A stretch of 64,000 nucleotides of DNA from a phage, in the NCBI GenBank assembly GCA_033664045.1, contig GCA_033664045.1_3674.1; one strand, written 5' to 3'. Made by a program: the position numbers and the translations under genes. The notes beneath the pieces were generated by a model, which had not been told where the DNA came from, searched no databases, and saw only the letters and a list, made by a program, of their open reading frames with translations. Of this stretch, positions 22,985 to 36,222 are shown piece after piece (the first letter of the stretch is position 1; the number at the start of each line of letters is the position of its first letter).

Positions 22985-23440
22985 TTTCTAAAATGGATTT
23001 CCTCCTTTTGATATTTCACCGGGCTGGATATTTTAAAATTCTTAGAAAATCAGAAAATGGATCGAAAACTAAAATGGATTTTTCAGAGTAGGCGCGACAA
23101 GCTGAATAACTCATCCTATCGTTTGCACCATATTCCAGGCCACAATTACAGATTTCCAGCACATGCTCCCACCCTTCTACTAGAACTTCCTCCACTTACC
23201 CTTTACCTTCTATGGTAACAATCTAACCACTATCTTGAAGTTGCGGTGCAGCTTTCCAGGTACTCGATCTACTTTTCATTTCAGGGCTTGGATTTTCTGA
23301 AAATTTTTCTCGATAAATTTCTCAGTACTCGATCTGTTTTTCGTTTTCTGAATCGGATTTTCTGGAAATCGTTCCGGATCTCGACCTGAAATTTTTGGGG
23401 ACGAAATCGATTTTTCGTTTTCAGAAATGGATTTTTAAAA
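22985..23440. repeat. non-coding tract with short direct repeats
   Basis: AAAATGGATTT x4, TACTCGATCT x2, GGATTTTCTG x2, TTTTTCGTTTTC x2. Confidence 0.5.
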
Positions 23441-23579
23441 TTTGTATATGGAAATATTTTAGGAGGTATTATTTTATATAGAATTGTCACGGTAGGTAAT
23501 TAGCATGCTAACTAAATTTATGAAATGCGAAAAGTTCTCATTTAGAATTTTGAATGATAATCATTCTCGTTTGCAGAAT

Positions 23580-23605
23580 AACGGGCACCCCCGGTGATTG
23601 TCTCC
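23580..23605. repeat. 26-bp repeat, left arm of perfect inverted repeat
   Basis: aacgggcacccccggtgattgtctcc; exact reverse complement at 32392-32417. Confidence 0.6.
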
Positions 23606-23712
23606 CGGCCCCTACTGCCCCGGCTTGTTATTATAGTAACACACAGGACAAAGAAAGCAAGAAGTTTTTTGCATAAATTTTTAGACGATAATGATAATCG
23701 TTCTCATTTTAT

Positions 23713-23741
23713 GCAGCGCCCATCCCCGGTGGTTGTCTCCC
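23713..23741. repeat. degenerate direct copy of the 23580 repeat
   Basis: gcagcgcccatccccggtggttgtctccc, preceded by gataatcgttctcatttt as the first copy is by gataatcattctcgttt. Confidence 0.4.
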
Positions 23742-23963
23742 TGTCACCGGTGCCTGCCGTCCTTTCGATATGTATATTGTGCCACCTGGCGGGGCCGCTG
23801 TCAACACTTTTCAAAAAATTTTTCTAACCTGATGCGCTAACCGCTGCAACCTGGCGGGGCCAGCCTGGCAGGACCTAACTGACCAGGTAGGAGAGAATGA
23901 AGGCTTGCAAACCTGGTGGGCCTATGCTATAGGATAGGTAACAATTGAAGAGGAGGTACAAAA

Positions 23964-24140
23964 ATGAAAGGTAATATAATCCCCCTGGAAAATGTAGCTA
24001 TTAATGACGCTGAGGCTATCGCCCTGGTTGAAAAGGCTATGGCGGGAGCGTTGGAACATAAAGAAGAGTACGAAAAAATGATGGTTAACCTGGCAGGGGC
24101 GGCGGCTGGAGAATTCTACCCAAAAAATAATTTTAACTGA
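23964..24140 (+). CDS. hypothetical small protein (58 aa)
   Basis: not in track (<60 aa); strong RBS AGGAGGT 7 nt before ATG; clean 59-codon frame. Confidence 0.5.
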   Translation: MKGNIIPLENVAINDAEAIALVEKAMAGALEHKEEYEKMMVNLAGAAAGEFYPKNNFN

Positions 24141-24224
24141 TGGTTGACAGCTCGTACAGTTATTGTTATTCTTATCCTCGCAAGGTGAACAACACCACAC
24201 CAATTAACAGAGAGGATAAAAATC

Positions 24225-24422
24225 ATGAACGCCTACGGAATCAAAGTACGTCGCAACACTCGCCAGGTGGTCACCGATCAAATGGTTTGCCGGGTGGATG
24301 TAACCATCAACAACGGGCAAGGCCTTTATAAATTCCGTCGCGGTCAGAGCTATACCCGGCAGCAGCTTAATCGTTGCGCCCTGACAAAAGGTCAGATAAA
24401 CCACTGGTTTAATAAAAAATAA
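24225..24422 (+). CDS. hypothetical protein
   Basis: RBS GAGAGGA; basic small protein. Confidence 0.5.
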   Translation: MNAYGIKVRRNTRQVVTDQMVCRVDVTINNGQGLYKFRRGQSYTRQQLNRCALTKGQINHWFNKK

Positions 24423-24486
24423 GTATTGACATATAGTCCGACACCAAATACACTAAAAGCACAAAAGACACTAAGAGGATAAAATC

Positions 24487-24885
24487 ATGAAAACCACTAC
24501 CTTTAATTTTGATAATGCGGACTTTTCTTTTTCTGATGTCAAGAACTGCCGCCGTGATCGTGGATTTTACAAGGCCTATAATCTGGTGGGCCTGGACGAT
24601 GACAATAATTTGCACGAAGTAGCTGAGATCCGGTATTATGCCGCCGCCAGCGGGAACACTCACTACTGCGTTTTTTGGATACACGACAACAAGAACAATA
24701 AGTACGGCTATACTGGAGGCAAGGCGAGCGGTCACGGTTATGATAAAGCCAACGCAGCACTTCAGAGCGCATTAAATGCTATGGGGATCACTGCCGACGG
24801 CTGGATCTACGAAGAAGAGTTTTTGTCGGCACTTGCTGACCGCCTGGGCTATAAAAAGCACATTGTAACATGCGCCCACGAATAA
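24487..24885 (+). CDS. hypothetical protein
   Basis: promoter TTGACA-N17-TACACT near 24426; RBS AAGAGGA. Confidence 0.55.
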   Translation: MKTTTFNFDNADFSFSDVKNCRRDRGFYKAYNLVGLDDDNNLHEVAEIRYYAAASGNTHYCVFWIHDNKNNKYGYTGGKASGHGYDKANAALQSALNAMGITADGWIYEEEFLSALADRLGYKKHIVTCAHE

Positions 24886-24967
24886 AAATTGTTGACACGC
24901 TGCAAAATTCAAGTAAACTGGGCACAAAAGGCGGGAATGTTTCCCGCCAACATAAAGGAAAAAGATC

Positions 24968-25372
24968 ATGAATAAGAACGTACGCCGCATCATGAACGAA
25001 CTGGCAAACGATGAAAAAATTATTGATATGCATTTGGTCAACATTTGCCGCCGTTGTGTAACATACAACAACCGCGCCGCAAAAGCGCGTGAGATGAACG
25101 CAAAAGGCACCTTAAAGCCATTCCAGGTGGTGGTAAAGGCCATTAAAGATGTAACTAATACGGCAAACCAGGTACAGGGGAACACCAACGAGAGTACCAA
25201 TATTGATCCGTCTTACGTAATGAAACGGATCCGGACTTGCAAGAATAAAGAGCAGGTGTATAACGTCATAGATTGGCTGGACTCCCTGGGCGATGTGGTT
25301 TACAATAGGTTTTCTGCAGCTATTGAGATTCAGTTAGACAGGTTGGACGGGAAAGTACTAAAAACTTACTGA
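24968..25372 (+). CDS. hypothetical protein
   Basis: promoter TTGACA-N16-TAAACT near 24893; leader hairpin ggcgggaatgtttcccgcc; RBS AAAGGAA. Confidence 0.55.
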   Translation: MNKNVRRIMNELANDEKIIDMHLVNICRRCVTYNNRAAKAREMNAKGTLKPFQVVVKAIKDVTNTANQVQGNTNESTNIDPSYVMKRIRTCKNKEQVYNVIDWLDSLGDVVYNRFSAAIEIQLDRLDGKVLKTY

Positions 25373-25373
25373 G

Positions 25374-25420
25374 TTTATTTTTAGATGGCCTTGACTTCAG
25401 GGCCATCAATAAAGTAAACT
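25374..25420 (+). repeat. 47-nt repeated hairpin element, copy 1
   Basis: tttatttttagatggccTTGACTtcagggccatcaataaagtaaact; stem tggcc/ggcca with TTGACT in loop. Confidence 0.5.
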
Positions 25421-25452
25421 AGTCTCAACTAAGCGAAAAAGGGGGCTTTAAG

Positions 25453-25572
25453 ATGAGCACTACACGCCAATACACAAAGGTAACTATTATCGTTTGCGTT
25501 GTCGGTTACATCCTGGCGCAAATGTTAATGAGTAGCGCCAACAGTTTTGCAAAATTTTTCTTAAATTTTTAA
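25453..25572 (+). CDS. hypothetical small hydrophobic protein (39 aa)
   Basis: not in track; RBS AAGGGGG before ATG; VTIIVCVVGYILAQMLM hydrophobic core. Confidence 0.4.
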   Translation: MSTTRQYTKVTIIVCVVGYILAQMLMSSANSFAKFFLNF

Positions 25573-25651
25573 TTGACAAGCTAACCCAAATCGGTATACT
25601 TAAACACGTAAACGGGAAAACTTCCCAGAACACACAAAAGGAGAAAACACC

Positions 25652-25993
25652 ATGACTACTATGACCGCCACAGAAAAAGCTATGCAGATCGCCGCGCTGA
25701 AAAAACAGATCGCAGACCTTGAGAACAAGATCGATAACTTTGAAATCGACGAGGACAAGTACGACGAAAACTATGACGAATGGTTAGACGAGATCTACGG
25801 CGAAATTATGATCGGAAACATTTCTTTTCTTCCGTCGCGTATCCTCAAGGAGCTGGATCCTATCGCTTACCGCTGCGGATTTAGCGACTACATCGACAGC
25901 TTGGATATTGAGGACGATGAAGAGTACCAAGAATTACAGACAGAGCTCGAAGAAGTGAAAGAAGAGCTTGCAGAACTGGAAGAAAACGAGTAA
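25652..25993 (+). CDS. hypothetical highly acidic protein
   Basis: promoter TTGACA-N16-TATACT; RBS AAGGAGA; roughly 30 percent D+E with coiled-coil-like C-terminus. Confidence 0.55.
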   Translation: MTTMTATEKAMQIAALKKQIADLENKIDNFEIDEDKYDENYDEWLDEIYGEIMIGNISFLPSRILKELDPIAYRCGFSDYIDSLDIEDDEEYQELQTELEEVKEELAELEENE

Positions 25994-25995
25994 AA

Positions 25996-26042
25996 TTTAT
26001 TTTTAGATGGCCTTGACTCCAGGGCCATCAATAAAGTAAACT
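25996..26042 (+). repeat. 47-nt repeated hairpin element, copy 2
   Basis: tttatttttagatggccTTGACTccagggccatcaataaagtaaact. Confidence 0.5.
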
Positions 26043-26083
26043 TTATACTGTTAACACTGAACTAATGCATAGGAGTTAAAACC

Positions 26084-26329
26084 ATGGCAGCACTAATCAC
26101 CAAATATTATGCCCCTACCAACACCAAAAGCGCCCGTATCATGGTAAAAGGCTTCGGACGTAAAAAGGTTTACACCTGGGATTATGCCTTAGACACAGAA
26201 GACAACTACACCAACGCGATGACCGATTTTATTAATGATCTGAACACGCGGATCTTGACAAATTATCAAATTACCGATATTGCCTATATAGGGGAAGGCG
26301 GGATCTGTTTTGTCGGTATCGTCAAATAG
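26084..26329 (+). CDS. hypothetical protein
   Basis: RBS AGGAG. Confidence 0.55.
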   Translation: MAALITKYYAPTNTKSARIMVKGFGRKKVYTWDYALDTEDNYTNAMTDFINDLNTRILTNYQITDIAYIGEGGICFVGIVK

Positions 26330-26406
26330 GCTGTTTTTTCGGTGGTCCTGGTAGCAGGGCCATCTATAAAGATAGTTTATCAACACAATGAAAGGAGAAA
26401 GTACAC

Positions 26407-26760
26407 ATGATCAGCGGGGCTAGTTTTATTATTGGCGCTATTGCTACGGCTTTAATTGTAAACAAGATCCAGGATAAAAAAGAAAGAGGAAGTACCGCCC
26501 TTGCAGAATATCCATTTTGGACATTCAACGATAACGAAGATTATATTATAAAGTATAAAAATAAAGAAGGCGACCAAGTAACACCGCGACCGATCCCGGC
26601 TTACAAAATGCAGGAAACACTATACCGCCTGGAGGCGGGGGGCGCAAAAATTGTGGACTTTTGGGGATACGACCACACAGATCAGGAAGTTATAAAGCGC
26701 CGTATCCGGGCTATTCAGGCCAATATTGAAGTTAGCAAGGGTGGAATATATGAAAATTAA
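26407..26760 (+). CDS. hypothetical protein
   Basis: RBS AAAGGAGA. Confidence 0.55.
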   Translation: MISGASFIIGAIATALIVNKIQDKKERGSTALAEYPFWTFNDNEDYIIKYKNKEGDQVTPRPIPAYKMQETLYRLEAGGAKIVDFWGYDHTDQEVIKRRIRAIQANIEVSKGGIYEN

Positions 26761-26947
26761 TTTCGAGAAAATTGTAAAGCGCCCTCATGATTCCGAAGAG
26801 CTGCCAGAACGCCGACAGCGTAACAATAAACTGAATAAGCCAAAAAGATTTGGGAAGATCTGGCGGAATCATTATGATCGTAAATTGCCCGGCCTACTTT
26901 TGGAACGTGAACGACAGGCAGAACGATACCGCCATAAAGACAAATAA
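26750..26947 (+). CDS. hypothetical basic protein
   Basis: ATG at 26750 after AAGGGTGGA; overlaps upstream stop. Confidence 0.5.
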   Translation: MKINFEKIVKRPHDSEELPERRQRNNKLNKPKRFGKIWRNHYDRKLPGLLLERERQAERYRHKDK

Positions 26948-26955
26948 CAACCAAC

Positions 26956-26984
26956 GCCCCGCCATTGTGCGGGGCTTTTTATTT
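26956..26984 (+). terminator. rho-independent terminator
   Basis: gccccgccattgtgcggggc + TTTTTATTT. Confidence 0.6.
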
Positions 26985-27166
26985 CTATCCTACGAATAGC
27001 GCCCCTGGTTGGCCCTGTAAGCGCCAAAAAGGCCCCCACCTATGCAATCGCCCCCCTTTAACCTGAAAACATCGCCCAGGGCCGTTTTATGGCGTTAAAA
27101 ATATCATTGACATCGTCAACAGGTTAGCTATACTAACCACATCAAAGAGAGAAAGGAGTAAACGCC

Positions 27167-27427
27167 ATGCGTAAATTAAAAAATTTTGATAAAGTTGATG
27201 TTATCCTGAATAATTTTTACTACTGCAACAATAAGGCTATTTGGTGGCGTGATAGTTCCACCGATAAAGTCAAGGCGCGCTTTCTTCAGGGGCACTGGCA
27301 AGGCCGCCCAGTGATTAAAATCATGGGGCAATTGGTAGCGTTTAAAAATTGCCGCCGTGTTGATGACGTTGAGGAGATTTTAAACATTTTGCGCCACAAT
27401 AATTTAAAAAATAGTGTTGACAAGTAA
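27167..27427 (+). CDS. hypothetical protein
   Basis: promoter TTGACA-N16-TATACT near 27104; RBS AAAGGAG. Confidence 0.55.
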   Translation: MRKLKNFDKVDVILNNFYYCNNKAIWWRDSSTDKVKARFLQGHWQGRPVIKIMGQLVAFKNCRRVDDVEEILNILRHNNLKNSVDK

Positions 27428-27444
27428 ATCTCAATAAGTATAAT
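27417..27444 (+). promoter_or_regulatory. sigma70-like promoter TTGACA-N16-TATAAT followed by leader hairpin
   Basis: gTTGACAagtaaatctcaataagTATAATtaaacacacaGGCGGGaaaacttCCCGCC. Confidence 0.55.
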
Positions 27445-27501
27445 TAAACACACAGGCGGGAAAACTTCCCGCCACTAACAAAGAAAACAGGAGAAAATAT
27501 C

Positions 27502-28125
27502 ATGACCACCGTTAACATTACCACAGGTTACAATTTATCTTTCGACGTGCTGACCGATGAACAAAAAGAAAAAGCTATTGAAATGGTCCGCGAAAGAGAA
27601 GAACACAGCGGGGATAACTTTTTTGCAGAAAGTGTAATTGAAGACTATAAAGAACATATCTTTCCAGAGTATGGCCTTGAAGATACCAAGGTACATTGGT
27701 CCGGATTTTGGTGCCAGGGCGACGGCGCATCAATCAGTGCGGAAAACGTGGATTTAGAAAAATTCTTGCGTAAAGTAAAGGCCCTTACCAAGTTCCGATC
27801 AATTCGTCACTTGTTCGGCACAATGCACGATGGCGAACTATCCGCAAGCGTTGAGCGTGATCCATATAGCCGCTATAGTCACGAAAACACTGTAAGCGGG
27901 TACATCGATACTACATGGCTAGACCTGACCGCCAAACAAGAAAATAAAGTGGAAGATCTGGAAGAGCTGATCACCGAGACGGTACGGGAGCTATCCCGCA
28001 AGGTTTACGTAGACCTGGAGCAAGCTTATCTTGAACAATTTACTACCGAAAACCTGATCGGCCTTATCGAGGCCAATGATTGGCGGTTTGATGTGGATGA
28101 ATATGGCGAGATGACTTTTTCATAA
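27502..28125 (+). CDS. hypothetical acidic protein
   Basis: RBS CAGGAGA; 207 aa. Confidence 0.55.
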   Translation: MTTVNITTGYNLSFDVLTDEQKEKAIEMVREREEHSGDNFFAESVIEDYKEHIFPEYGLEDTKVHWSGFWCQGDGASISAENVDLEKFLRKVKALTKFRSIRHLFGTMHDGELSASVERDPYSRYSHENTVSGYIDTTWLDLTAKQENKVEDLEELITETVRELSRKVYVDLEQAYLEQFTTENLIGLIEANDWRFDVDEYGEMTFS

Positions 28126-28214
28126 ATAAAGTGTTGCAATAACCTAAAAACCTGCTATATTAAAACTCAAGGGGCAAGACGTTTGCCCCCACACAAAACA
28201 AAGAGGAAAACATC

Positions 28215-28595
28215 ATGAAAAACACCACTAAAGCTATTGACACCGTTATGTTTAACCTGGTTACCTTTCGCGAGGATATGAAAGATCTTCCGCGTGAAAC
28301 AGTGTGCGACCATATCGAAAACTATCGCAAACTAATCAAAGAGTTGCCTTTAAAACGTGATCAGTATGCGGCTAACGCCATGCTTAATGCCATGATCAAA
28401 AAGATGATCCAGTGTGATTTAACTCTGGCCTATGACTATGCGGGTGGTCGTTTTGCAGTATACAATCAGCCCGTGCCTGGTATGAGCACCACCGAAGAAT
28501 TGCACGCGCTCAATCTAAAACAAGACGTGTGGGATAGTATGCCTCGCGTGGTGGTATGGGTAGAAAGCGGAAAGATTTACGGCGATAATTTTTAA
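28215..28595 (+). CDS. hypothetical protein
   Basis: promoter TTGCAA-N16-TATATT; leader hairpin ggggcaagacgtttgcccc; RBS AAAGAGGA. Confidence 0.55.
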   Translation: MKNTTKAIDTVMFNLVTFREDMKDLPRETVCDHIENYRKLIKELPLKRDQYAANAMLNAMIKKMIQCDLTLAYDYAGGRFAVYNQPVPGMSTTEELHALNLKQDVWDSMPRVVVWVESGKIYGDNF

Positions 28596-28659
28596 TCAGG
28601 TAACAGGCGGCATATTTGCCGCCTTATTGTTAATCAGAACTGTAAAAGAGGTACATAGA

Positions 28660-29031
28660 ATGGAATTTATTATTTTGGCTGTACTGGTTGCCTTGTTTAA
28701 CGCCTGGATCGCTGGCAAGATGGGAAGATCCGCCTTTTTATGGTTTATTATATCTATTTTCCTGGGGGTGGTTGCAACTATTGTATTGGTTATCCTTGCA
28801 ATTGTTGACAAGGGGAATAATAGAAAGGGTAAAGTATTTTCAGACCTGTACGACGCTCAAACGTTTGTCAACGCCTATTATAGTGATCTCCCAGTCTCCC
28901 TACGTTGCAGCCTTGCACAACAGGTTTTCGATGAAGCTAAAACCAGAGATCACGCCCATGAGATTTGTTTAACTGAGGCGGATCGCTTATTTGAGAGGAA
29001 TAGAAAATATGTGGGCCAGCCGTTTAAATAA
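28660..29031 (+). CDS. hypothetical membrane protein
   Basis: ATG at 28660 after AAAAGAGG; two hydrophobic helices. Confidence 0.5.
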   Translation: MEFIILAVLVALFNAWIAGKMGRSAFLWFIISIFLGVVATIVLVILAIVDKGNNRKGKVFSDLYDAQTFVNAYYSDLPVSLRCSLAQQVFDEAKTRDHAHEICLTEADRLFERNRKYVGQPFK

Positions 29032-29250
29032 TACCACGTTAATTAATCCGCTTAGTGAAGATTTGAGGCCAGCCGCCTGGCGGGATGGATTCAATAATGA
29101 AAGCTTTATTTTCAGGCCTGATCTTAAGGAATTTTATAACAATGGATCGGACAACGACAGAGATAATTTTTCTTGTAATGTGCGTGGTGATAATACTCCT
29201 GGGGGCCATTGCAAACCACGTAACTGCTAACAGGGGGAAGGGGGGAGACG

Positions 29251-29370
29251 ATGACAACCAAGGATAAGCCCCGCACCGATAAGGCGCGCCGTGCTATGGT
29301 ATGGCTTGAGATCATCGCCCTTGAAATATTGTTAGGTGTAGGGATGTATTTTATCGCTGTAAGTAACTGA
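29251..29370 (+). CDS. hypothetical small membrane-anchored protein (39 aa)
   Basis: not in track; G-rich RBS before ATG; basic N-terminus then hydrophobic helix; terminator follows. Confidence 0.35.
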   Translation: MTTKDKPRTDKARRAMVWLEIIALEILLGVGMYFIAVSN

Positions 29371-29374
29371 TAAC

Positions 29375-29415
29375 GGCCCCCGATCCCTGGGGGCCTAACT
29401 TTTTAAAATTTTTTT
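29375..29415 (+). terminator. rho-independent terminator
   Basis: ggcccccgatccctgggggcc followed by long T-tract. Confidence 0.55.
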
Positions 29416-29513
29416 CTCCTTGGGTGTTGCAATCCGATCCAGAATATGGATAATAACAATCAACGGGGAGACACTCCCCACCACACAGACAAAATTCCAA
29501 AAGGAGAAACAAA

Positions 29514-29714
29514 ATGAGCAACAATATCCGCGTTATTAACTTCAAAAAAGAAGAAAAAATTGCTGTGCTGGTTGATGGTCAAGAAATCTTCAAGGGCGAC
29601 TATGAAGATCATCAAACGGCGATTAGTATCACTCGCGTGATCGGTTACCATAATTTCTACCCCCAAGGCGCTGAGGCAGCAGTTAAACGAATCAAAGAGA
29701 TTGTAGGCCTGTAA
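29514..29714 (+). CDS. hypothetical protein
   Basis: promoter TTGCAA-N17-ATAATA; leader hairpin ggggagacactcccc; RBS AAAGGAGA. Confidence 0.5.
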   Translation: MSNNIRVINFKKEEKIAVLVDGQEIFKGDYEDHQTAISITRVIGYHNFYPQGAEAAVKRIKEIVGL

Positions 29715-29716
29715 AA

Positions 29717-29762
29717 TTTATTTTTAGATGGCCTTTACTTCAGGGCCATCAATAAAGTAAAT
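29717..29762 (+). repeat. 47-nt repeated hairpin element, copy 3
   Basis: tttatttttagatggcctttacttcagggccatcaataaagtaaat. Confidence 0.5.
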
Positions 29763-29805
29763 TTAAACCCTGTTAAAATAATCAGTGCAAAAAGGAGTAA
29801 TGATC

Positions 29806-30105
29806 ATGTTTATACCCGCCAATAATCTTTATTTCTTTGATGGTCAGATCGTAGACGGTGTGGAAGTGGAGATCACTGGGTGCCCTGGTGGTCAGGCTAT
29901 GACTTTTCGGAATAATGCCTTTGATGATTCTCATATCGTTATGAGAATGGAAGTTACAAAGCTGGACGACAAGAAAACGCTTATTGACTATTCCGTGAAA
30001 GATCATCCAGACTACCACATGATCTATGGTGATTTGTGTATTGTTGACCGTGACAAGGTGGGCGGCATTGTGATCGCTATTGTGAACGATGTTTTCTCTG
30101 AATAA
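29806..30105 (+). CDS. hypothetical protein
   Basis: ATG at 29806 with AAGGAG RBS (track start 29785). Confidence 0.5.
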   Translation: MFIPANNLYFFDGQIVDGVEVEITGCPGGQAMTFRNNAFDDSHIVMRMEVTKLDDKKTLIDYSVKDHPDYHMIYGDLCIVDRDKVGGIVIAIVNDVFSE

Positions 30106-30329
30106 TTCCGGCAAATGATGCAAAATAAGGCCCCTAGCAGGGCCTGCAGCGATATAATCACATAAAGGCTATGCGGTTGCATGGCCTTTATTATTTTAGC
30201 GTTACAGCGGCCCCCAAGGCGCTTAAAAAATTTTTAAAGAAGTACTTGCATCAAGCCCTACAATATGGATAATAGGACGTGTCAGGGGGGCGGCCCCAAT
30301 CATTAACCGGATAGATAGGAGTTAAAACC

Positions 30330-30614
30330 ATGGCTATTGTTACTGCTGGCGATGTAGTAGAAATGGAAGCAAAATACTTAAAAGCGGGTATGCATATCCT
30401 ACGGAATGATCAAGAGTTATTATTAACGATGGTCGACTATAATCCCGGCCAGGATTATCCAAGCATCGACTACTTTTTTGAGTATGTTGATGAAGAATTA
30501 AAAGAGGATGAGGCCTATTGCGGTGAGTTCTGCAATTTCTTTTGTCCTGATGAGGTTGTAAAGGTTATCTATCAACCTGGCGTAGCTTTCCCTCTGCACG
30601 CTATCAATAAATAA
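30330..30614 (+). CDS. hypothetical protein
   Basis: promoter TTGCAT-N17-ATAATA; RBS TAGGAG. Confidence 0.55.
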   Translation: MAIVTAGDVVEMEAKYLKAGMHILRNDQELLLTMVDYNPGQDYPSIDYFFEYVDEELKEDEAYCGEFCNFFCPDEVVKVIYQPGVAFPLHAINK

Positions 30615-30679
30615 ACCTGGCGGGGCCGAAAAGGCCCCTACAGCATAAAATCATAAAAAATAAAGAGAGGCAAATCATC

Positions 30680-30913
30680 ATGATGGAACAAATTAAACGC
30701 GCTGAGGCTATTAATGGCAATGTGATCTATTTTGTCAGCAAAAACGAAAAAGGCGTACCATATGCGGCGGTAATAGTACAGCCTGACGGAGATTATTGGT
30801 TTACTGTATACGGATCTTATTCTTTTGGGCGTCCAGTGCATGATAAAATTTTGAAAGTAGCGAACCCCACCGGGAAGAATATCACGGCAGAAAAATTTTT
30901 TGAAAAGTGTTGA
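30680..30913 (+). CDS. hypothetical protein
   Basis: RBS AAAGAGAGG. Confidence 0.5.
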   Translation: MMEQIKRAEAINGNVIYFVSKNEKGVPYAAVIVQPDGDYWFTVYGSYSFGRPVHDKILKVANPTGKNITAEKFFEKC

Positions 30914-30988
30914 CATGACCATATAAAACTGTAGTATATAAATCAAAGGGGGCAACAAGCCCCACCAACCACAAAGAGGATAAAAATC

Positions 30989-31168
30989 ATGGCTATTATT
31001 GCAAAAACTGAGATCGTAGGCTTAGATTCTATTCTCCTCGCATATGAGGAAGCTATAGAAATGTATGTGGTTTCCTATGGTGAGTATATCCGTGAATATA
31101 AATCTATTGATCTGGCTTTTGAATGTTATATTCGCCAGGTAAATAAAGCATATGATGATTATCGTTAA
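30989..31168 (+). CDS. hypothetical small protein (59 aa)
   Basis: not in track; promoter TTGACA near 30910, leader hairpin gggggcaacaagcccc, RBS AAAGAGGA. Confidence 0.45.
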   Translation: MAIIAKTEIVGLDSILLAYEEAIEMYVVSYGEYIREYKSIDLAFECYIRQVNKAYDDYR

Positions 31169-31264
31169 AATAGTTTGACAACAAACAACCATCTAACAAA
31201 GCATAATACATAAGGTGGTAGAATGATCTGATCCGCCACCTGGAACAAAGAAGAGGTAAACACC

Positions 31265-31369
31265 ATGAAACAGAAATTAATTGATGCAGTGATCTTGGTT
31301 ATTGCCCTAGGTATTGGCCTGATTGCAACCATGGCTAATGTGATCTTGTCTTCCAACGGTATCGGGTGA
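31265..31369 (+). CDS. hypothetical hydrophobic peptide (34 aa)
   Basis: not in track; RBS AAGAAGAGG; single predicted TM helix. Confidence 0.35.
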   Translation: MKQKLIDAVILVIALGIGLIATMANVILSSNGIG

Positions 31370-31378
31370 GGTTGACAA

Positions 31379-31594
31379 ATGATCACTAACAAAACAGGCA
31401 AAACGGAATTTTTACGCAACTTGCAGATCGGCAAGCCTGAGATCTGGTATTGCACTAAAACACCACGTGACGAAATGAAAGACTTCACCGCCACGCTGCA
31501 ACGGGTAAAGATATCTATCACGCAGAAAAAGGCCTTACTAGTGGTGGAAGGGGAGATCCCCCAAACCGTTGTTATAGTTGAGCGTACAGCATAG
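31379..31594 (+). CDS. hypothetical protein
   Basis: ORF close after the 34-aa peptide. Confidence 0.5.
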   Translation: MITNKTGKTEFLRNLQIGKPEIWYCTKTPRDEMKDFTATLQRVKISITQKKALLVVEGEIPQTVVIVERTA

Positions 31595-31683
31595 TTTAAT
31601 CTATACCGTACGCCCCATTAACTAACAAAGCATAAACAGGCGGCGGTAACCGCCTTAAACGCAGCAGAAAGAGGATAGACAAC

Positions 31684-31968
31684 ATGAAAAAGATGATCGC
31701 AGTGGTTGCCCTGGTTATTGGACTTAATGCGCCTGTAATGGCTAAAGAGCTGGCAAAAGAGGTAGATCTAACTGATATCCATGCCGTCAATCAAATCGGT
31801 GTTACTTATCGGTTATGCCTTGCCGCAAAAACTTTCCAGGATGGCACAACAGAGTACTACGGATTCGAAGGCATCCGGTGCGGTGAGCTTGCTCGCGACC
31901 TTAAAGAAGATCCAGACCTGGAGGATCTGCCGATAACCGTAAACGGGAAAACTTACGTGAACCGTTAA
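31684..31968 (+). CDS. hypothetical secreted protein
   Basis: signal-peptide-like MKKMIAVVALVIGLNAPVMA; RBS AAAGAGGA. Confidence 0.5.
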   Translation: MKKMIAVVALVIGLNAPVMAKELAKEVDLTDIHAVNQIGVTYRLCLAAKTFQDGTTEYYGFEGIRCGELARDLKEDPDLEDLPITVNGKTYVNR

Positions 31969-31970
31969 CC

Positions 31971-32105
31971 ATGAGAAAGATAATTATCACCATGGGGATC
32001 GTGGCGGGATCGCTGGCGCTCTTTCTCCTTATGGTTAGGTATGTGCTGATCAGTATTGTCCTGACAGTCAGTGATCTATTGGAAACGGTTGGCACCTTGT
32101 TTTAA
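31971..32105 (+). CDS. hypothetical hydrophobic peptide (44 aa)
   Basis: not in track; starts 2 nt after upstream stop; weak RBS. Confidence 0.3.
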   Translation: MRKIIITMGIVAGSLALFLLMVRYVLISIVLTVSDLLETVGTLF

Positions 32106-32118
32106 AGAGCGATAGAAA

Positions 32119-32310
32119 ATGAATATCGAACAAGTTAGAAAGGTATTAACGGTACTGCGTTATCATAATCATAGAAAGGTCATAGACGATCCTGATTATG
32201 TTGATTCAAGCCTGGAAGGGGATACACTGCAAGCCATAAGCAACATGCAAGAATTGCTCAAGCGCATGACAGAGAAAAACCGACCGGACTACATAGGCGA
32301 AAAAATATAA
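32119..32310 (+). CDS. hypothetical protein
   Basis: ORF followed by terminator-like hairpin and T-tract near 32322-32350. Confidence 0.5.
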   Translation: MNIEQVRKVLTVLRYHNHRKVIDDPDYVDSSLEGDTLQAISNMQELLKRMTEKNRPDYIGEKI

Positions 32311-32391
32311 TCCTTATAAACTACAAAACAGGGCTTGCAATGGTCCTGTTTTTTGTTATACTTGTTTCACGGGTGGCACCTGGCGACGGGG

Positions 32392-32417
32392 GGAGACAAT
32401 CACCGGGGGTGCCCGTT
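32392..32417. repeat. 26-bp repeat, right arm of perfect inverted repeat
   Basis: ggagacaatcaccgggggtgcccgtt is the exact reverse complement of 23580-23605. Confidence 0.6.
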
Positions 32418-32522
32418 ATATAAAAAACTATAAAAACCGTTGACATCTGCCGGGTGGTGGGGTAGCATTTACCTTGAAGGGGCAAAAGTGCCCACACAAC
32501 AACCAGAAGAGAGGAAAACACT

Positions 32523-33730: not shown

Positions 33731-34179
33731 TTTGCTCTTTTCCTACCACAAACGGCCCAGCCTGGCAAGTGGAATAATTGACTAGCCATCAATCCCGCAC
33801 ACTGTACAAATATACATATAAAATAGATATTGCATAACCTTTCATTGTGTGGTAGCAGGGCCATTTTTACACGTTTTTCCTTCCAAAATTGCACGTAATG
33901 CAGCTATTGCACAAAATTTAACCTGATGCACATCTTCAGTATACTGTCAACAATTAAAAACCCTTATAAGTCATACACTTACACAAACCAAAAAGCGTGT
34001 CCTACGTGAAAAATCGGGTGTAACTATAGCCGACAGATCTCAGAATCCACGTACGATCACCATTCTATAGCCTGCAAAGTATTTATTCCAACCACAGAAT
34101 AACGGAATAGTCAATACCTGTATAAAATAATTATTCGTATAAACTGCATAACATAAACCCGCCCAGGTGTCAACATTTT

Positions 34180-35040
34180 TCGTAAACAGTCCGAAATTGT
34201 CACGGTGAGTTATCATAAATAGAGAAATATTTAGTCGTCTAATGTTTACTGTACATTACTATACTGACTGGAATCATTAGATGACTAAGAGAAAGATAAG
34301 AAATAATTAACAATGTAAGTATTTTACCTGCAACAATAAGGCAACTATGCAAACGAATGTCATGGCGCGACGGAGTCGCGACATAATATAAAAGCAGTAA
34401 CCATCACCCCCGTGATAGTTTGTCTGCAAACTATTAATCAGATCATAGTTGCCTTGTATTTAGTTAATCATGACATAACAAGCAAGGCAACTATAGATCT
34501 TCTAATAGTTGCCCTGCTTTTATATTATGTCATCTATTGTAAATCAGTTAATTGTTTTCATGCAAACGAATGTCATGGCTTATCATTTTTGAGTAAATAG
34601 TTTGTTTGTAAACAATCTATACGTAAACAGTTAACTATGTAAACTATTAGATATGTAAACTATTGGTTATGTAGACTATCAGGAATGTAAACAGTAAAGC
34701 GAGTGAATAGTGAGAGCGTAAACAGTCAGGCATGTCAATTATGTTTAATGTGCCCAGTATGTCACTATTGTGTCTAAAGTGTCATAGTATGTCACAGTAT
34801 GTCAGACAAGTTTTTCTCCTCTTTGTCAAGTGCTGCATGAAAAATTTACAAACTGGTATGGTAGCATTTTTGCGGCCCTGTTTACATTCAGTAATGTATG
34901 TATAATCCTTGTTGTGTGGGCGTTTGGACGTCTAGACGGTTGGAAGTCTGCAGGTCAATATCTAATCTATTGGCTGCTAACTATATCCCACACAAATAGT
35001 AAGAAATATGATTGTTATATGCGTAAACAGTAACTCATGT
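34180..35040. repeat. iteron-rich non-coding region
   Basis: at least 8 copies of GTAAAC(A/T)(G/A)T; 5 copies of (A)GTATGTCA at about 10-11 bp spacing (34757-34805); inverted ATAGTTGCC/GGCAACTAT pairs; palindrome cgcgacggagtcgcg. Confidence 0.55.
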
Positions 35041-36222
35041 TATCAATCCCTGTATGTATCGCCAGTGGTGCGCATAATGGGTATTATGTTAAATTGCCCG
35101 TAATGATAACTATTCTCACAATGATAGGTATTCTCATTCACCCCCACAAGATAGGTTGCAAATGTTGTGCCACTGTGTGAACGGCCTCACCTATTAATTT
35201 GCCTCACTGCCTCGATATTTGAGAATTGTTATAAGAATGAGAAGTATTCCCATTCCGTCCGCCTGGCAGCACTCCAGTCGCTACGGCTCATAACAGGGCA
35301 GAACTGGGTCCATTCAGATATTTCTGGCTGGCTCTTCAGGTCTGTGTGGGAAAAGCCAACCTCTCCTGCGGCGGGGAGGGGGTCAATTAAAAAATTTACG
35401 TGGTATATGTAGCGCTGTTCAGGTAAGGCATGTATTATGGGATGAAATCCTCTTCAGGCAATGATATTTGTGGGTGTGATATTTGCTGGAAAGCCAGATA
35501 TGACGGGACTCCCGGCGGGGCAGGGGTGGTACAGACAGGGAAAATATGGAGGATGTGGTTGGGTGAATTGATCAGACAGGTAGAGTATGGAATATGTTAC
35601 AAGTATGTTAAATATGAAGGGTGAATATCTGTAGGATTTGTGTGTAAAATCAAAGACTTAAGTAGTGTTGTGGTATTTTCTATAAATAATTCAAGTTTAA
35701 TAGGTAATATTTGTCTCTATCCACTTTGTGTGGTAAACAAATTCAGATGAGATTGGTTTACAAGTGTATACATAATATACAAATTAAAGATACAAGAAAC
35801 CCCCCTCCCCCTTCGGCTACCATTCACCTTTTCCTCTGACTGGTACTTAAACACTTATTCAGACTCTTCAGGTTATCACCCATATATCATATGGCAGTGA
35901 CTGGTGTCCTCCGGCCCCTCTTTCGTCACCCGTCCGCTTCGCCATGCTAATGCCATAGCCAAATGTTCGGTTGTTCACCCTGTTCACTCAGGTGTATCTC
36001 CATACCCCTTCAAACCGAAGAGAACAGAAAACCCGAATTACTCGGTAAAAGAAAAGAGAAGAACTTAATTTTATCAAGATAGGCAAGAATGTCAAGGCAT
36101 GACTGCTCACTAAACAAGCAAACAGTCATGTGCGGTAGGTAAGTGATTGTGGTTGTAGGAAATTTAATTGAAAGATGTGTTATAGGTGCTTCCAGCACTT
36201 TAGCCTGGCAGCTAATTGTGTG

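What the first reader, a model, noticed from the sequence alone, without database searches (positions are those of the whole stretch)
23578..32417. Perfect 26-bp inverted repeat brackets the small-gene island
aacgggcacccccggtgattgtctcc at 23580-23605 recurs as its exact reverse complement at 32392-32417 (the match extends to about 29 bp), with a degenerate direct copy at 23713-23741. Related GC-rich words (acctggcggggcc) recur at about 23784, 23848, 23910, 30615 and 32375. A long exact inverted repeat 8.8 kb apart in an AT-rich phage region is unlikely by chance. It could mark the ends of an acquired or invertible cassette, paired binding sites for a regulator, or recombination sites.
Basis: seen in the sequence. 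Interest (0 to 1): 0.7.

Follow-up and report, generated by a model that had tools for sequence, protein, structure and literature searches.

The report
Paired promoter-leader cassettes with Fur boxes
The perfect inverted repeat is real, but it marks three copies of a conserved non-coding promoter-plus-leader cassette that face opposite ways, not the ends of a movable gene island; the left copies abut binding sites for the host iron regulator Fur, so this lytic phage may read host iron status.

Summary
The 29-bp perfect inverted repeat (23578-23606 / 32391-32419) and the degenerate third copy (23713-23741) are confirmed and far beyond chance. The window is an rV5-like Vequintavirus of E. coli.

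The repeat is the core of a non-coding cassette: a sigma-70-type early promoter, a 15-31 nt leader, then GGAGACAAnCACC, a short G/C-only tract and UGCCyGyyAU. Two left copies fire leftward and the right copy fires rightward, which explains the inversion.

I found 37 copies in about 12 lineages of Vequintavirinae and Stephanstirmvirinae, always promoter-linked. A complete relative has only three copies.

Perfect left/right identity is peculiar to this isolate: FV3 has 28/29, and rV5 and others differ at 3-6 positions. No inversion, recombinase or target duplication was found, so cassette ends and an invertible segment are rejected.

Left copies, and right-equivalents in other genera, are followed after exactly 8 nt by 1-4 Fur boxes at 29-bp spacing. 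At L1 one box fills the spacer of an opposing promoter, TTGAAT-18-CAGAAT.

No conserved RNA fold, Rfam family, E. coli homolog or publication was found.

Best model, at moderate confidence: a Fur-gated face-to-face promoter pair at the start of the early region. The function of the core motif remains unproven.

The parts
23578..23606 (-). L1 core (left arm of the inverted repeat). Read on the - strand it is GGGAGACAATCACCGGGGGTGCCCGTTAT.
   Evidence: nhmmer E 7e-10. Nearly invariant in close relatives.
23713..23741 (-). L2 core, a degenerate tandem copy: GGGAGACAACCACCGGGGATGGGCGCTGC.
32391..32419 (+). R core (right arm), identical to L1 in this isolate only.
23630..23660 (-). Leftward sigma-70-type promoter of L1 (P_B-L1): TTGCTT 23660-23655, then TACTAT/TATAAT 23638-23630. 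Predicted start is about 23623, 17 nt before the core.
   Evidence: Read. A promoter in this position occurs in all 37 copies; 65% score >=9/12 against 5.6% background.
23776..23825 (-). Leftward promoter of L2 (P_B-L2): A/T-rich upstream element, TTGACA 23804-23799, 17-nt GC-rich spacer, CACAAT 23781-23776. Predicted start is about 23769.
   Evidence: The upstream element plus -35 is an inverted copy of the + strand early promoter at 30889-30937 (inverted repeat I1).
32335..32362 (+). Rightward promoter of R (P_B-R): TTGCAA-16-TATACT with TG. Its -35 lies in the loop of the upstream terminator. Predicted start is 32369, 22 nt before the core.
32325..32352 (+). Stem-loop terminator of the last island gene, overlapping P_B-R (a PeSL-like terminator-promoter composite).
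   Evidence: This block (32322-32422) is conserved across genera.
23550..23579 (+). Opposing promoter P_A at L1: TTGAAT 23550-23555, an 18-nt spacer holding the Fur box, CAGAAT 23574-23579. The predicted start is CA at 23586-23587, inside the core.
   Evidence: TTGAAT-18-CAGAAT recurs exactly in left-type copies of six lineages and with one change to the -10 or -35 hexamer in several more. It is absent from right-type copies.
23555..23569 (.). Fur box 1 of L1, TGATAATCATTCTCG. It has 1 mismatch to the phage box consensus TGATAATCATTCTCA (2 to the canonical 7-1-7 box TGATAATnATTATCA), and the 19-mer at 23550-23568 matches 15/19. It lies 8 nt from the core.
23526..23540 (.). Weak second Fur-like box of L1 (TGCGAAAAGTTCTCA), 29 bp from box 1.
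23687..23706. Fur box of L2: GATAATGATAATCGTTCTC, 17/19 to the Fur consensus and the best match in the window.
   Evidence: It is also the best in the complete relative Aya.
32440..32468 (+). Next early promoter (rV5 P168 equivalent), TTGACA-17-TAGCAT, 21 nt after the R core. The R cassette has no gene of its own.
23784..23796 (+). GC-rich word ACCTGGCGGGGCC. Here it forms the spacer of P_B-L2. Exact copies are also at 23849-23861 and 30615-30627.

Best explanation
The inverted repeat is the shared core of three copies of a conserved non-coding promoter-leader cassette. It does not mark the boundaries of the island.

Each copy lies 15-31 nt downstream of the predicted start of a sigma-70-type early promoter. 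It is therefore transcribed as the first ~50 nt of an RNA. L2 and L1 are transcribed leftward, against the early genes. R is transcribed rightward, with them. The arms are inverted because the cassettes face opposite directions.

The core is a linear motif with three parts:
- a Shine-Dalgarno/translation-initiation-like 13-mer, GGAGACAAnCACC, with no start codon;
- 3-5 variable, G/C-rich bases;
- UGCCyGyyAU.
It has no conserved RNA fold.

In the ancestral cassette the core is followed after exactly 8 nt by one to four Fur boxes spaced 29 bp apart. At L1 the first box fills the spacer of an opposing promoter, TTGAAT-18-CAGAAT, whose predicted start lies inside the core.

My model is that the left copies form a Fur (iron)-gated face-to-face promoter pair at the upstream edge of the early region.
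- With Fe-Fur bound, the rightward promoter is shut and leftward polymerases meet Fur just past the core.
- Without Fur, the rightward promoter fires through the core. It then collides with the leftward promoter and makes RNA antisense to its leader.

R in E. coli phages is a derivative that kept the promoter and leader but lost the Fur box. Its perfect identity to L1 in this isolate reflects a local gene conversion.

Shown here: the sequences, positions, conservation and copy number. Inferred: all transcription, Fur binding, and the interference between the two promoters.
For: - Copy number and conservation: nhmmer found 37 non-redundant copies in 22 loci from rV5-like phages, Certrevirus, Seunavirus, Mydovirus, Serratia and Erwinia phages, and Stephanstirmvirinae. 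All have the same orientation relative to an upstream promoter.
- Promoter enrichment: 65% of copies score >=9/12 against 5.6% of background positions.
- Cross-genus conservation: blastn shows that only 23524-23608 and 32322-32422 are conserved between genera, and both blocks end at the repeat.
- Fur boxes lie at offsets 8, 37, 66 and 95 nt from the core, with consensus AAATGAGAATGATTATCATT. Phage 4MG has a perfect TGATAATGATTATCA.
- The two best Fur boxes in the window, and in a complete 136-kb relative, are the L1 and L2 boxes (shuffle mean 0.5).
- TTGAAT-18-CAGAAT is conserved in left-type copies. The spacing from core to box is fixed, whereas the spacing from the leftward promoter to the core varies.
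- The leftward strand carries real genes in the same gap in other genera.
- A complete relative has only three copies.
- The R tail in the window/FV3 lineage equals the L1 tail at 5 positions where other R copies differ.
Against: - There is no transcript, start-site or Fur-binding data for any of these phages.
- The rightward promoter is weak (8/12). Its -10 loses the key A in some lineages, giving CGGAAT or CTGAAT.
- R copies in E. coli phages keep the core without a Fur box or an opposing promoter. Mid-island copies in Seunavirus and Mydovirus have a Fur box but no convincing opposing promoter. The core must therefore have a role the switch model does not explain.
- No gene lies downstream of the leftward promoters in this window.
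- Fur roadblocking at about +60 is not an established mechanism.
Confidence: 0.4

Rival explanations
1. The core is a leader element that acts on the transcript or on the transcribing polymerase. Possibilities are a put/nut/ops-like antitermination or pause site read as RNA or as non-template DNA, a 5' stabiliser, or a start-codon-less ribosome-binding decoy. The Fur boxes would be a separate, adjacent function.
For: Orientation and linkage to an upstream promoter are strict in all 37 copies, while the distance from the start varies from 15 to 31 nt. The conservation is linear-sequence only, as with ops. The 13-mer scores as a translation initiation region at the 82nd-99.5th percentile of positions, within the range of real rV5 start regions. 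The early region is dense with terminators. The divergent left/right arrangement resembles nutL/nutR and putL/putR (my knowledge).
Against: No conserved RNA structure was found: RNAalifold returned no consensus structure at all on 35 copies (0 kcal/mol) and -1.5 kcal/mol on the 11 R-type leaders. Cognate and chimeric leader/tail combinations fold equally well (p=0.33). Fold z-scores run from -2.0 to +0.1. There is no Rfam match. No N, Q or RfaH-like factor was identified. Leftward antiterminated transcription would have no gene to express here.
Confidence: 0.22
2. The core is a double-stranded DNA operator for an unidentified phage or host regulator. The regulator would control the three promoters together.
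For: The 13-mer is conserved across two subfamilies while the flanks diverge. The motif is an imperfect palindrome, GGTGA-TTG-TCTCC. The spacing to the Fur box is fixed. There is no RNA structure signal.
Against: A symmetric operator would not need one fixed orientation relative to an upstream promoter in all 37 copies. The distance to that promoter varies. I recognised no match to known E. coli factor consensus sequences (CRP, IHF, NtrC, IscR, OxyR, sigma-54); this rests on memory, not on a database test.
Confidence: 0.18
3. The left gap is a replication origin, or a Fur decoy. In the origin reading, regularly spaced palindromic boxes, adjacent curved A/T-rich DNA and strong promoters firing into them act as in a lambda-type origin, with the G-rich transcript forming a primer or R-loop. 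In the decoy reading, the box arrays on replicating genomes titrate Fur and de-repress host iron uptake.
For: Up to four palindromic boxes lie at exact 29-bp spacing. A/T-rich 65-bp tandem repeats lie at 23250-23435. There are tandem leftward promoters with no gene. The leader is G-rich. The rV5 origin is unknown. Multicopy Fur boxes are known to titrate Fur in the FURTA assay (my knowledge).
Against: The boxes match host Fur, not a known initiator. The 65-bp repeats are not conserved outside the genus. The R copy has no boxes. Nothing here tests replication or titration.
Confidence: 0.12
4. The arms are ends of an invertible, mobile or recently acquired cassette, or dedicated recombination sites.
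For: There is a perfect 29-bp inverted repeat 8.8 kb apart. Short repeated promoter cassettes (PeSLs) do mediate recombination in T4-type phages. The R tail looks converted to the L1 sequence.
Against: See the first-reader check: there is no inversion in relatives, the arrangement is ancient, arm identity is isolate-specific, there is no recombinase, there is no target duplication, and composition is unchanged.
Confidence: 0.03

Closest known systems
PeSL (promoter-early stem-loop) mobile regulatory cassettes of T4-type phages RB49/phi1 (Arbiol et al. 2010, PMC2839356)
   Same: Both are repeated intergenic cassettes in a region of small unknown-function early genes. Both have a strong sigma-70-like promoter with an A/T-rich upstream region and a G/C-rich stem-loop that overlaps or flanks the -35/-10. 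The R cassette places its -35 in the loop of a terminator. Several rV5 island genes are annotated as similar to RB49 proteins.
   Different: This is a different phage subfamily. The defining conserved part here is a transcribed 29-nt leader motif, which PeSLs lack. Two copies face against the genes and have no downstream gene. Fur boxes are attached. No mini-circles or shuffling were shown.
Fur-repressed promoters of enterobacteria (Fur box 19-mer GATAATGATAATCATTATC / 7-1-7 motif TGATAATnATTATCA; e.g. the aerobactin, tonB and ryhB promoters; my knowledge)
   Same: The boxes match the consensus at 14-15 of 15 positions. One box sits between a -35 and a -10, the classical repression geometry.
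   Different: The boxes are in a virulent phage and form arrays of discrete boxes at 29-bp spacing. They sit directly downstream of a strong opposing promoter. No iron-related gene follows.
lambda nutL/nutR and HK022 putL/putR (my knowledge)
   Same: Both are near-identical promoter-proximal transcribed elements placed behind divergent promoters, so they appear as an inverted repeat around a central region.
   Different: nut and put act through defined RNA hairpins. No conserved fold is detectable here. No N-like gene is known, and the leftward copies have no operon to antiterminate.
Face-to-face promoters pR/pL of coliphage 186 (transcriptional interference; my knowledge)
   Same: A strong and a weak promoter converge over a few tens of base pairs, so one can interfere with the other.
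   Different: Phage 186 is temperate and the switch is set by a phage repressor. Here the putative gate is host Fur, and the outputs are unknown.

Membership tests
Invertible DNA segment (Hin/Gin/Cin type) | Inverted repeats flank the segment | tested here: met
   29-bp perfect inverted repeat.
Invertible DNA segment (Hin/Gin/Cin type) | Invertase/recombinase gene inside or next to the segment | tested here: not met
   The ten largest island ORFs have no recombinase, resolvase or transposase Pfam hit. All neighbours are annotated as hypothetical proteins.
Invertible DNA segment (Hin/Gin/Cin type) | Both orientations seen among genomes or reads | tested here: not met
   In 57 relatives >=80% of the 11-kb region aligns as one same-strand place. 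Reads were not available.
Transposon / insertion sequence | Terminal inverted repeats with a flanking target-site duplication and a transposase | tested here: not met
   The flanks gtttgcaga and ataaaaaac do not match. There is no transposase. The arrangement is ancient.
PeSL regulatory cassette | Sigma-70-like promoter with an A/T-rich upstream region | tested here: met
   P_B-L2 shares its upstream element with the promoter at 30889-30937.
PeSL regulatory cassette | G/C-rich stem-loop overlapping or adjoining the promoter and acting as a terminator | tested here: inconclusive
   R meets this: the terminator at 32325-32352 overlaps the -35. L1 and L2 have GC-rich spacers but no clear stem.
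PeSL regulatory cassette | Sits immediately upstream of a small gene, ending in a Shine-Dalgarno sequence and start codon | tested here: not met
   The core is Shine-Dalgarno/initiation-region-like, but no start codon or gene follows. R is followed by another promoter.
PeSL regulatory cassette | Mediates recombination or shuffling between copies | not testable with these tools
   There is only an indirect hint: the R tail of the window/FV3 lineage matches L1.
Fur-regulated promoter | Sequence match to the Fur box | tested here: met
   17/19 at 23687 and 15/19 at 23550. The 15-bp boxes have 1 mismatch to the phage box consensus TGATAATCATTCTCA and 2 to the canonical 7-1-7 motif TGATAATnATTATCA. 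There are 43 boxes next to cores in other phages, one a perfect match.
Fur-regulated promoter | Box overlaps the -35/-10 of a promoter | tested here: met
   The box fills the spacer of TTGAAT-18-CAGAAT at L1. This is conserved in most left-type lineages. The promoter itself is predicted, not shown.
Fur-regulated promoter | Fur binding and iron-dependent expression | not testable with these tools
   Needs EMSA or footprinting and expression assays.
nut/put-type antitermination RNA | Promoter-proximal and transcribed | tested here: met
   The core begins 15-31 nt after the predicted starts; these are predictions only.
nut/put-type antitermination RNA | Conserved RNA stem-loop(s) supported by covariation | tested here: not met
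   The only support is one lineage-level leader/tail match among E. coli R copies.
Small regulatory RNA gene | Own promoter plus a conserved intrinsic terminator that defines a short transcript | tested here: not met
   A promoter is present, but no conserved terminator follows on either strand. There is no Rfam family.

The most novel reading that the evidence does not exclude
Large virulent enterobacterial phages (Vequintavirinae and Stephanstirmvirinae) carry a conserved iron-sensing control module at the head of their early region. In it, arrays of host Fur boxes are fused to a promoter-leader cassette. The Fur-released rightward RNA begins with GGUGAUUGUCUCC, the exact antisense of an early-gene ribosome-binding motif, and acts as an anti-RBS regulator. 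The strongly transcribed sense copies, including R, act as its decoys. Alternatively, the multicopy boxes titrate Fur to raise host iron uptake for phage replication.
Probability: 0.2. Interest if true: 0.8.

Novelty: new variant of a known kind. Interest (0 to 1): 0.55.

Why it matters
If Fur really binds here, this would be a conserved case of strictly lytic phages wiring a host metal-stress regulator into their earliest transcription. These phages are rV5-like broad-host-range viruses that are common in the infant gut and of interest for controlling pathogenic E. coli. Infection outcome might then depend on iron availability in the gut or in infected tissue. The work also defines a 13-nt leader motif conserved across two phage subfamilies, with no assigned function and no match in Rfam. 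Finally, it extends the idea of mobile promoter cassettes (PeSLs) beyond T4-type phages.

Tried and rejected
- Trans-antisense pairing between L and R RNAs. Rejected because L/R identity is not maintained in rV5, POP15, PBES02, phiWec186, Mt1B1_P17 or Seunavirus.
- A structured RNA. RNAalifold returned no consensus structure at all on 35 copies (0 kcal/mol) and -1.5 kcal/mol on the 11 R-type leaders. The 5'/3' duplex permutation test gave p=0.22. The chimeric leader/tail test gave p=0.33 for the GGAGACAA-reading strand and 0.82 for its complement. Fold z-scores were weak. Only one lineage-level compensation was seen.
- Rfam at gathering and at permissive thresholds returned only chance-level hits. 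No tRNA or tmRNA was found.
- Host origin. There was no match in 5,426 complete E. coli genomes at E<=10.
- A mini-ORF starting at the conserved NUG (for example GUG-CCC-GUU-AUA-UAA). Rejected: variability is not confined to third codon positions, the Shine-Dalgarno spacing is poor, and CUG starts are common.
- A sigma-70-dependent pause using the -10-like GACAAT. The key T varies among T, A and C.
- ops/RfaH. GGCGGTAG occurs in the leaders of two variants only; the window has GGCAGTAG.
- CRISPR-repeat mimic, G-quadruplex, and sites for CRP, IHF, NtrC, IscR, OxyR or sigma-54. No consistent match; these comparisons rest on memory.
- Genome-end and DNA-entry models. rV5 is reported as circularly permuted.
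- IMG/VR scans added few relatives. The 15-mer scan returned mostly chance hits.
- Literature searches found no description of the element and no transcriptome of these phages.

Full report
**Observation.** The 26-mer occurs exactly twice in the window, in inverted orientation, with none expected in shuffles. The perfect match is 29 bp, at 23578-23606 and 32391-32419. A third, degenerate copy lies at 23713-23741, in direct orientation to the left arm. The word ACCTGGCGGGGCC occurs exactly at 23784, 23849 and 30615, with looser relatives nearby. The region is about 42-45% GC, like its surroundings.

**Context.** The window is an rV5-like Vequintavirus of E. coli, about 93% identical to rV5 over 22.5-33.5 kb. 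Judged by GC skew and the ORF list, and by the rV5 annotation over about 21-35 kb, genes from 1 to about 36 kb run on the + strand. The bracketed 'island' is part of a long run of small early genes, each with sigma-70-type promoters and terminators. The left arm lies in a 750-bp gap with no credible gene (23220-23963). The right arm lies between the terminator of the last island gene and the next early promoter.

**What the repeat belongs to.**
- Distant-mode blastn showed that, in other genera, the only conserved parts of the two intergenic regions are 23524-23608 and 32322-32422. Both blocks end exactly at the repeat.
- I fetched loci from 12 lineages and searched them with a profile. The lineages were rV5-like phages, Certrevirus, Seunavirus, Mydovirus, Serratia phage Kashira, Erwinia phage Hena1, and the Stephanstirmvirinae phiWec186 and Mt1B1_P17, plus IMG/VR contigs. 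This gave 37 non-redundant copies.
- Reading the strand that gives GGAGACAATCACC, every copy is preceded by a sigma-70-type promoter. 65% score at least 9/12, against 5.6% of random positions.
- The predicted start lies 15-31 nt before the core.
- In the window these promoters are TTGCTT...TACTAT/TATAAT (23660-23630, - strand) for L1, TTGACA-17-CACAAT (23804-23776, - strand) for L2, and TTGCAA-16-TATACT (32335-32362, + strand) for R. The L2 promoter has an upstream element that is an inverted copy of the one at the + strand promoter at 30889-30937.
- The arms are therefore inverted because the left cassettes fire leftward and the right cassette fires rightward.

**Not cassette ends.**
- The left/right pair exists in all these lineages, 8.8-12 kb apart.
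- In 57 relatives at least 80% of the 11-kb region aligns as one same-strand place.
- A complete 136-kb relative has only these three copies.
- Island ORFs have no recombinase or transposase domains.
- There is no target-site duplication.
- The arms are perfectly identical only in this isolate. FV3 has 28/29. rV5 has an indel plus two changes. Aya, APECc02 and the IMG/VR contig L126 differ at 3-6 positions.
- L1 is nearly invariant, and the R tail of the window/FV3 lineage matches L1 at the five positions where other R copies differ. A short gene conversion is the simplest account.

**Anatomy of the core.** Per-position conservation gives GGAGACAA-n-CACCGG, three variable positions that are almost only G or C, then UGC-c-y-G-y-n-AU. 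The 13-mer resembles the early translation-initiation regions of these phages (for example GGAGAAATCACT-ATG and GGAGAAAACACC-ATG). It scores at the 82nd-99.5th percentile of positions on a matrix built from 43 rV5 start regions, but no start codon follows it.

**No conserved RNA fold.**
- RNAalifold found nothing on either strand for 35 copies, and only -1.5 kcal/mol for R-type copies.
- Leader/tail chimeras fold as well as cognate pairs.
- Fold z-scores range from -2.0 to +0.1.
- Rfam has no match.
- The one positive hint is that the two E. coli R-type lineages each prefer their own leader-tail combination by 3-8 kcal/mol. This represents a single evolutionary event.

**Fur boxes.**
- Left-type copies, mid-island copies in Seunavirus and Mydovirus, and Certrevirus right copies (at +38) are followed by palindromic boxes. 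Their consensus is AAATGAGAATGATTATCATT, which is the Fur 7-1-7 motif with 0-2 mismatches.
- In left-type and mid-island copies the first box begins 6-8 nt after the core (8 in nearly all). Further boxes follow at 29-bp steps in most lineages, giving offsets of 8, 37, 66 and 95.
- In the window, the two best Fur matches are at 23550-23568 (15/19) and 23687-23705 (17/19). Both lie beside L1 and L2. The same two are the best in the whole genome of the relative Aya.
- At L1 the box fills the spacer of an opposing promoter, TTGAAT-18-CAGAAT (23550-23579, + strand). Its predicted start is the conserved CA at 23586-23587, inside the core.
- This promoter recurs exactly in left-type copies of six lineages and nearly so in several more. 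It is absent from right-type copies.
- The core-to-box spacing is fixed, whereas the distance from the leftward promoter to the core varies.
- No homolog exists in E. coli chromosomes.

**Leftward transcription is plausible.** In Kashira, phiWec186 and Mt1B1_P17 the same gap holds a conserved leftward 88-aa gene (phrog_19316). In Seunavirus and Mydovirus it holds a leftward 63-aa DUF7170 gene. Both lie upstream of the leftward cassette promoter.

**Interpretation.**
- I am confident (about 0.85) that the repeat is the core of a conserved promoter-leader cassette family, and that the cassette-end and inversion ideas are wrong.
- For mechanism, I favour (0.4) a Fur-gated face-to-face promoter pair at the head of the early region. 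R would be a derivative that lost its Fur box.
- This model does not explain why the 13-mer itself is so conserved in copies that lack the opposing promoter.
- Rival roles therefore remain open: a leader element acting on RNA or polymerase, a DNA operator, or an origin or Fur decoy.
- All transcription and binding steps are inferred.

**Known relatives.** The closest described class is the PeSL mobile promoter/stem-loop cassette of T4-type phages. The rV5 genome paper annotated sigma-70-type promoters. It described the genome as circularly permuted and could not locate an origin. In the passages I searched it says nothing about this element. I found no transcriptome for these phages.

Noticed in passing
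window 23250-23435: Three tandem ~65-bp A/T-rich repeats with phased T-tracts lie just left of the Fur boxes, in the path of the leftward promoters. They are not conserved outside the genus.
   Followed up: partly
window 34000-35300: This is a long gene-poor, low-GC (35%) stretch full of short repeats: GTATGTCA five times at 34730-34805, GTAAACAG several times, and CAACTAT(A/G). It holds more Fur-like boxes at 35099-35136 and 35220-35250, and a core-like sequence CATCACCCCCGTGATAGTTTGTCTGCAAAC at 34398-34427. The record of the relative Aya starts at window ~34.80 kb, and several other relatives' records appear from hit coordinates to start within about 0.5 kb of it. It may be an origin, a packaging site or a control region.
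   Followed up: partly
window 25368-25421, 25990-26043, 26325-26378, 29711-29764: A four-copy family of 54-nt intergenic elements. Each carries a promoter -35 (TTGACT) in the loop of a GC stem (GATGGCC...GGCCATC) followed by a -10. They are PeSL-like cassettes within the island.
   Followed up: no
window 23799-23846 vs 30868-30915: A 48-nt inverted repeat (81%). The A/T-rich upstream element plus TTGACA of the leftward L2 promoter is an inverted copy of a rightward early promoter inside the island.
   Followed up: partly
window 25573-25638 and 27417-27482; also 31938-31962: Early promoters are followed by a short 5' hairpin (GGGAAAACTTCCC) before the ribosome-binding site. In Stephanstirmvirinae the equivalent is GGGGCGACAAGCGCCCC. 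This is a recurrent 5'-terminal stem-loop on early mRNAs.
   Followed up: no
L134 13081-13347, L002 17388-17654, L138 12776-13042 (+ strand in each locus); L135 13154-13345, L136 12977-13168: Other genera carry a small gene in the equivalent gap, on the strand opposite to the early genes. One is an 88-aa protein with a helix-turn-helix-like stretch GGTVHQVAxATGL (phrog_19316). The other is a 63-aa DUF7170 protein. Neither is present in the window.
   Followed up: partly
L133 2374, L135 2687, L136 1239 (Seunavirus/Mydovirus): A further cassette copy (core GGATACAAtCACC) sits at the far end of the early region on the same strand as the left copy. In 4MG it lies upstream of genes of the converging transcription unit. 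Cassette orientation therefore depends on context.
   Followed up: partly
window 30615-30641: The third exact copy of ACCTGGCGGGGCC runs into a GGGGCC-GAAAA-GGCCCC stem-loop, right after the stop codon of the gene ending at 30614.
   Followed up: no
phages collection hits: About 20 records labelled 'Campylobacter phage' (MG0656xx, unannotated) are ~93% identical to this E. coli phage region. They are probably mislabelled or contaminant assemblies.
   Followed up: no
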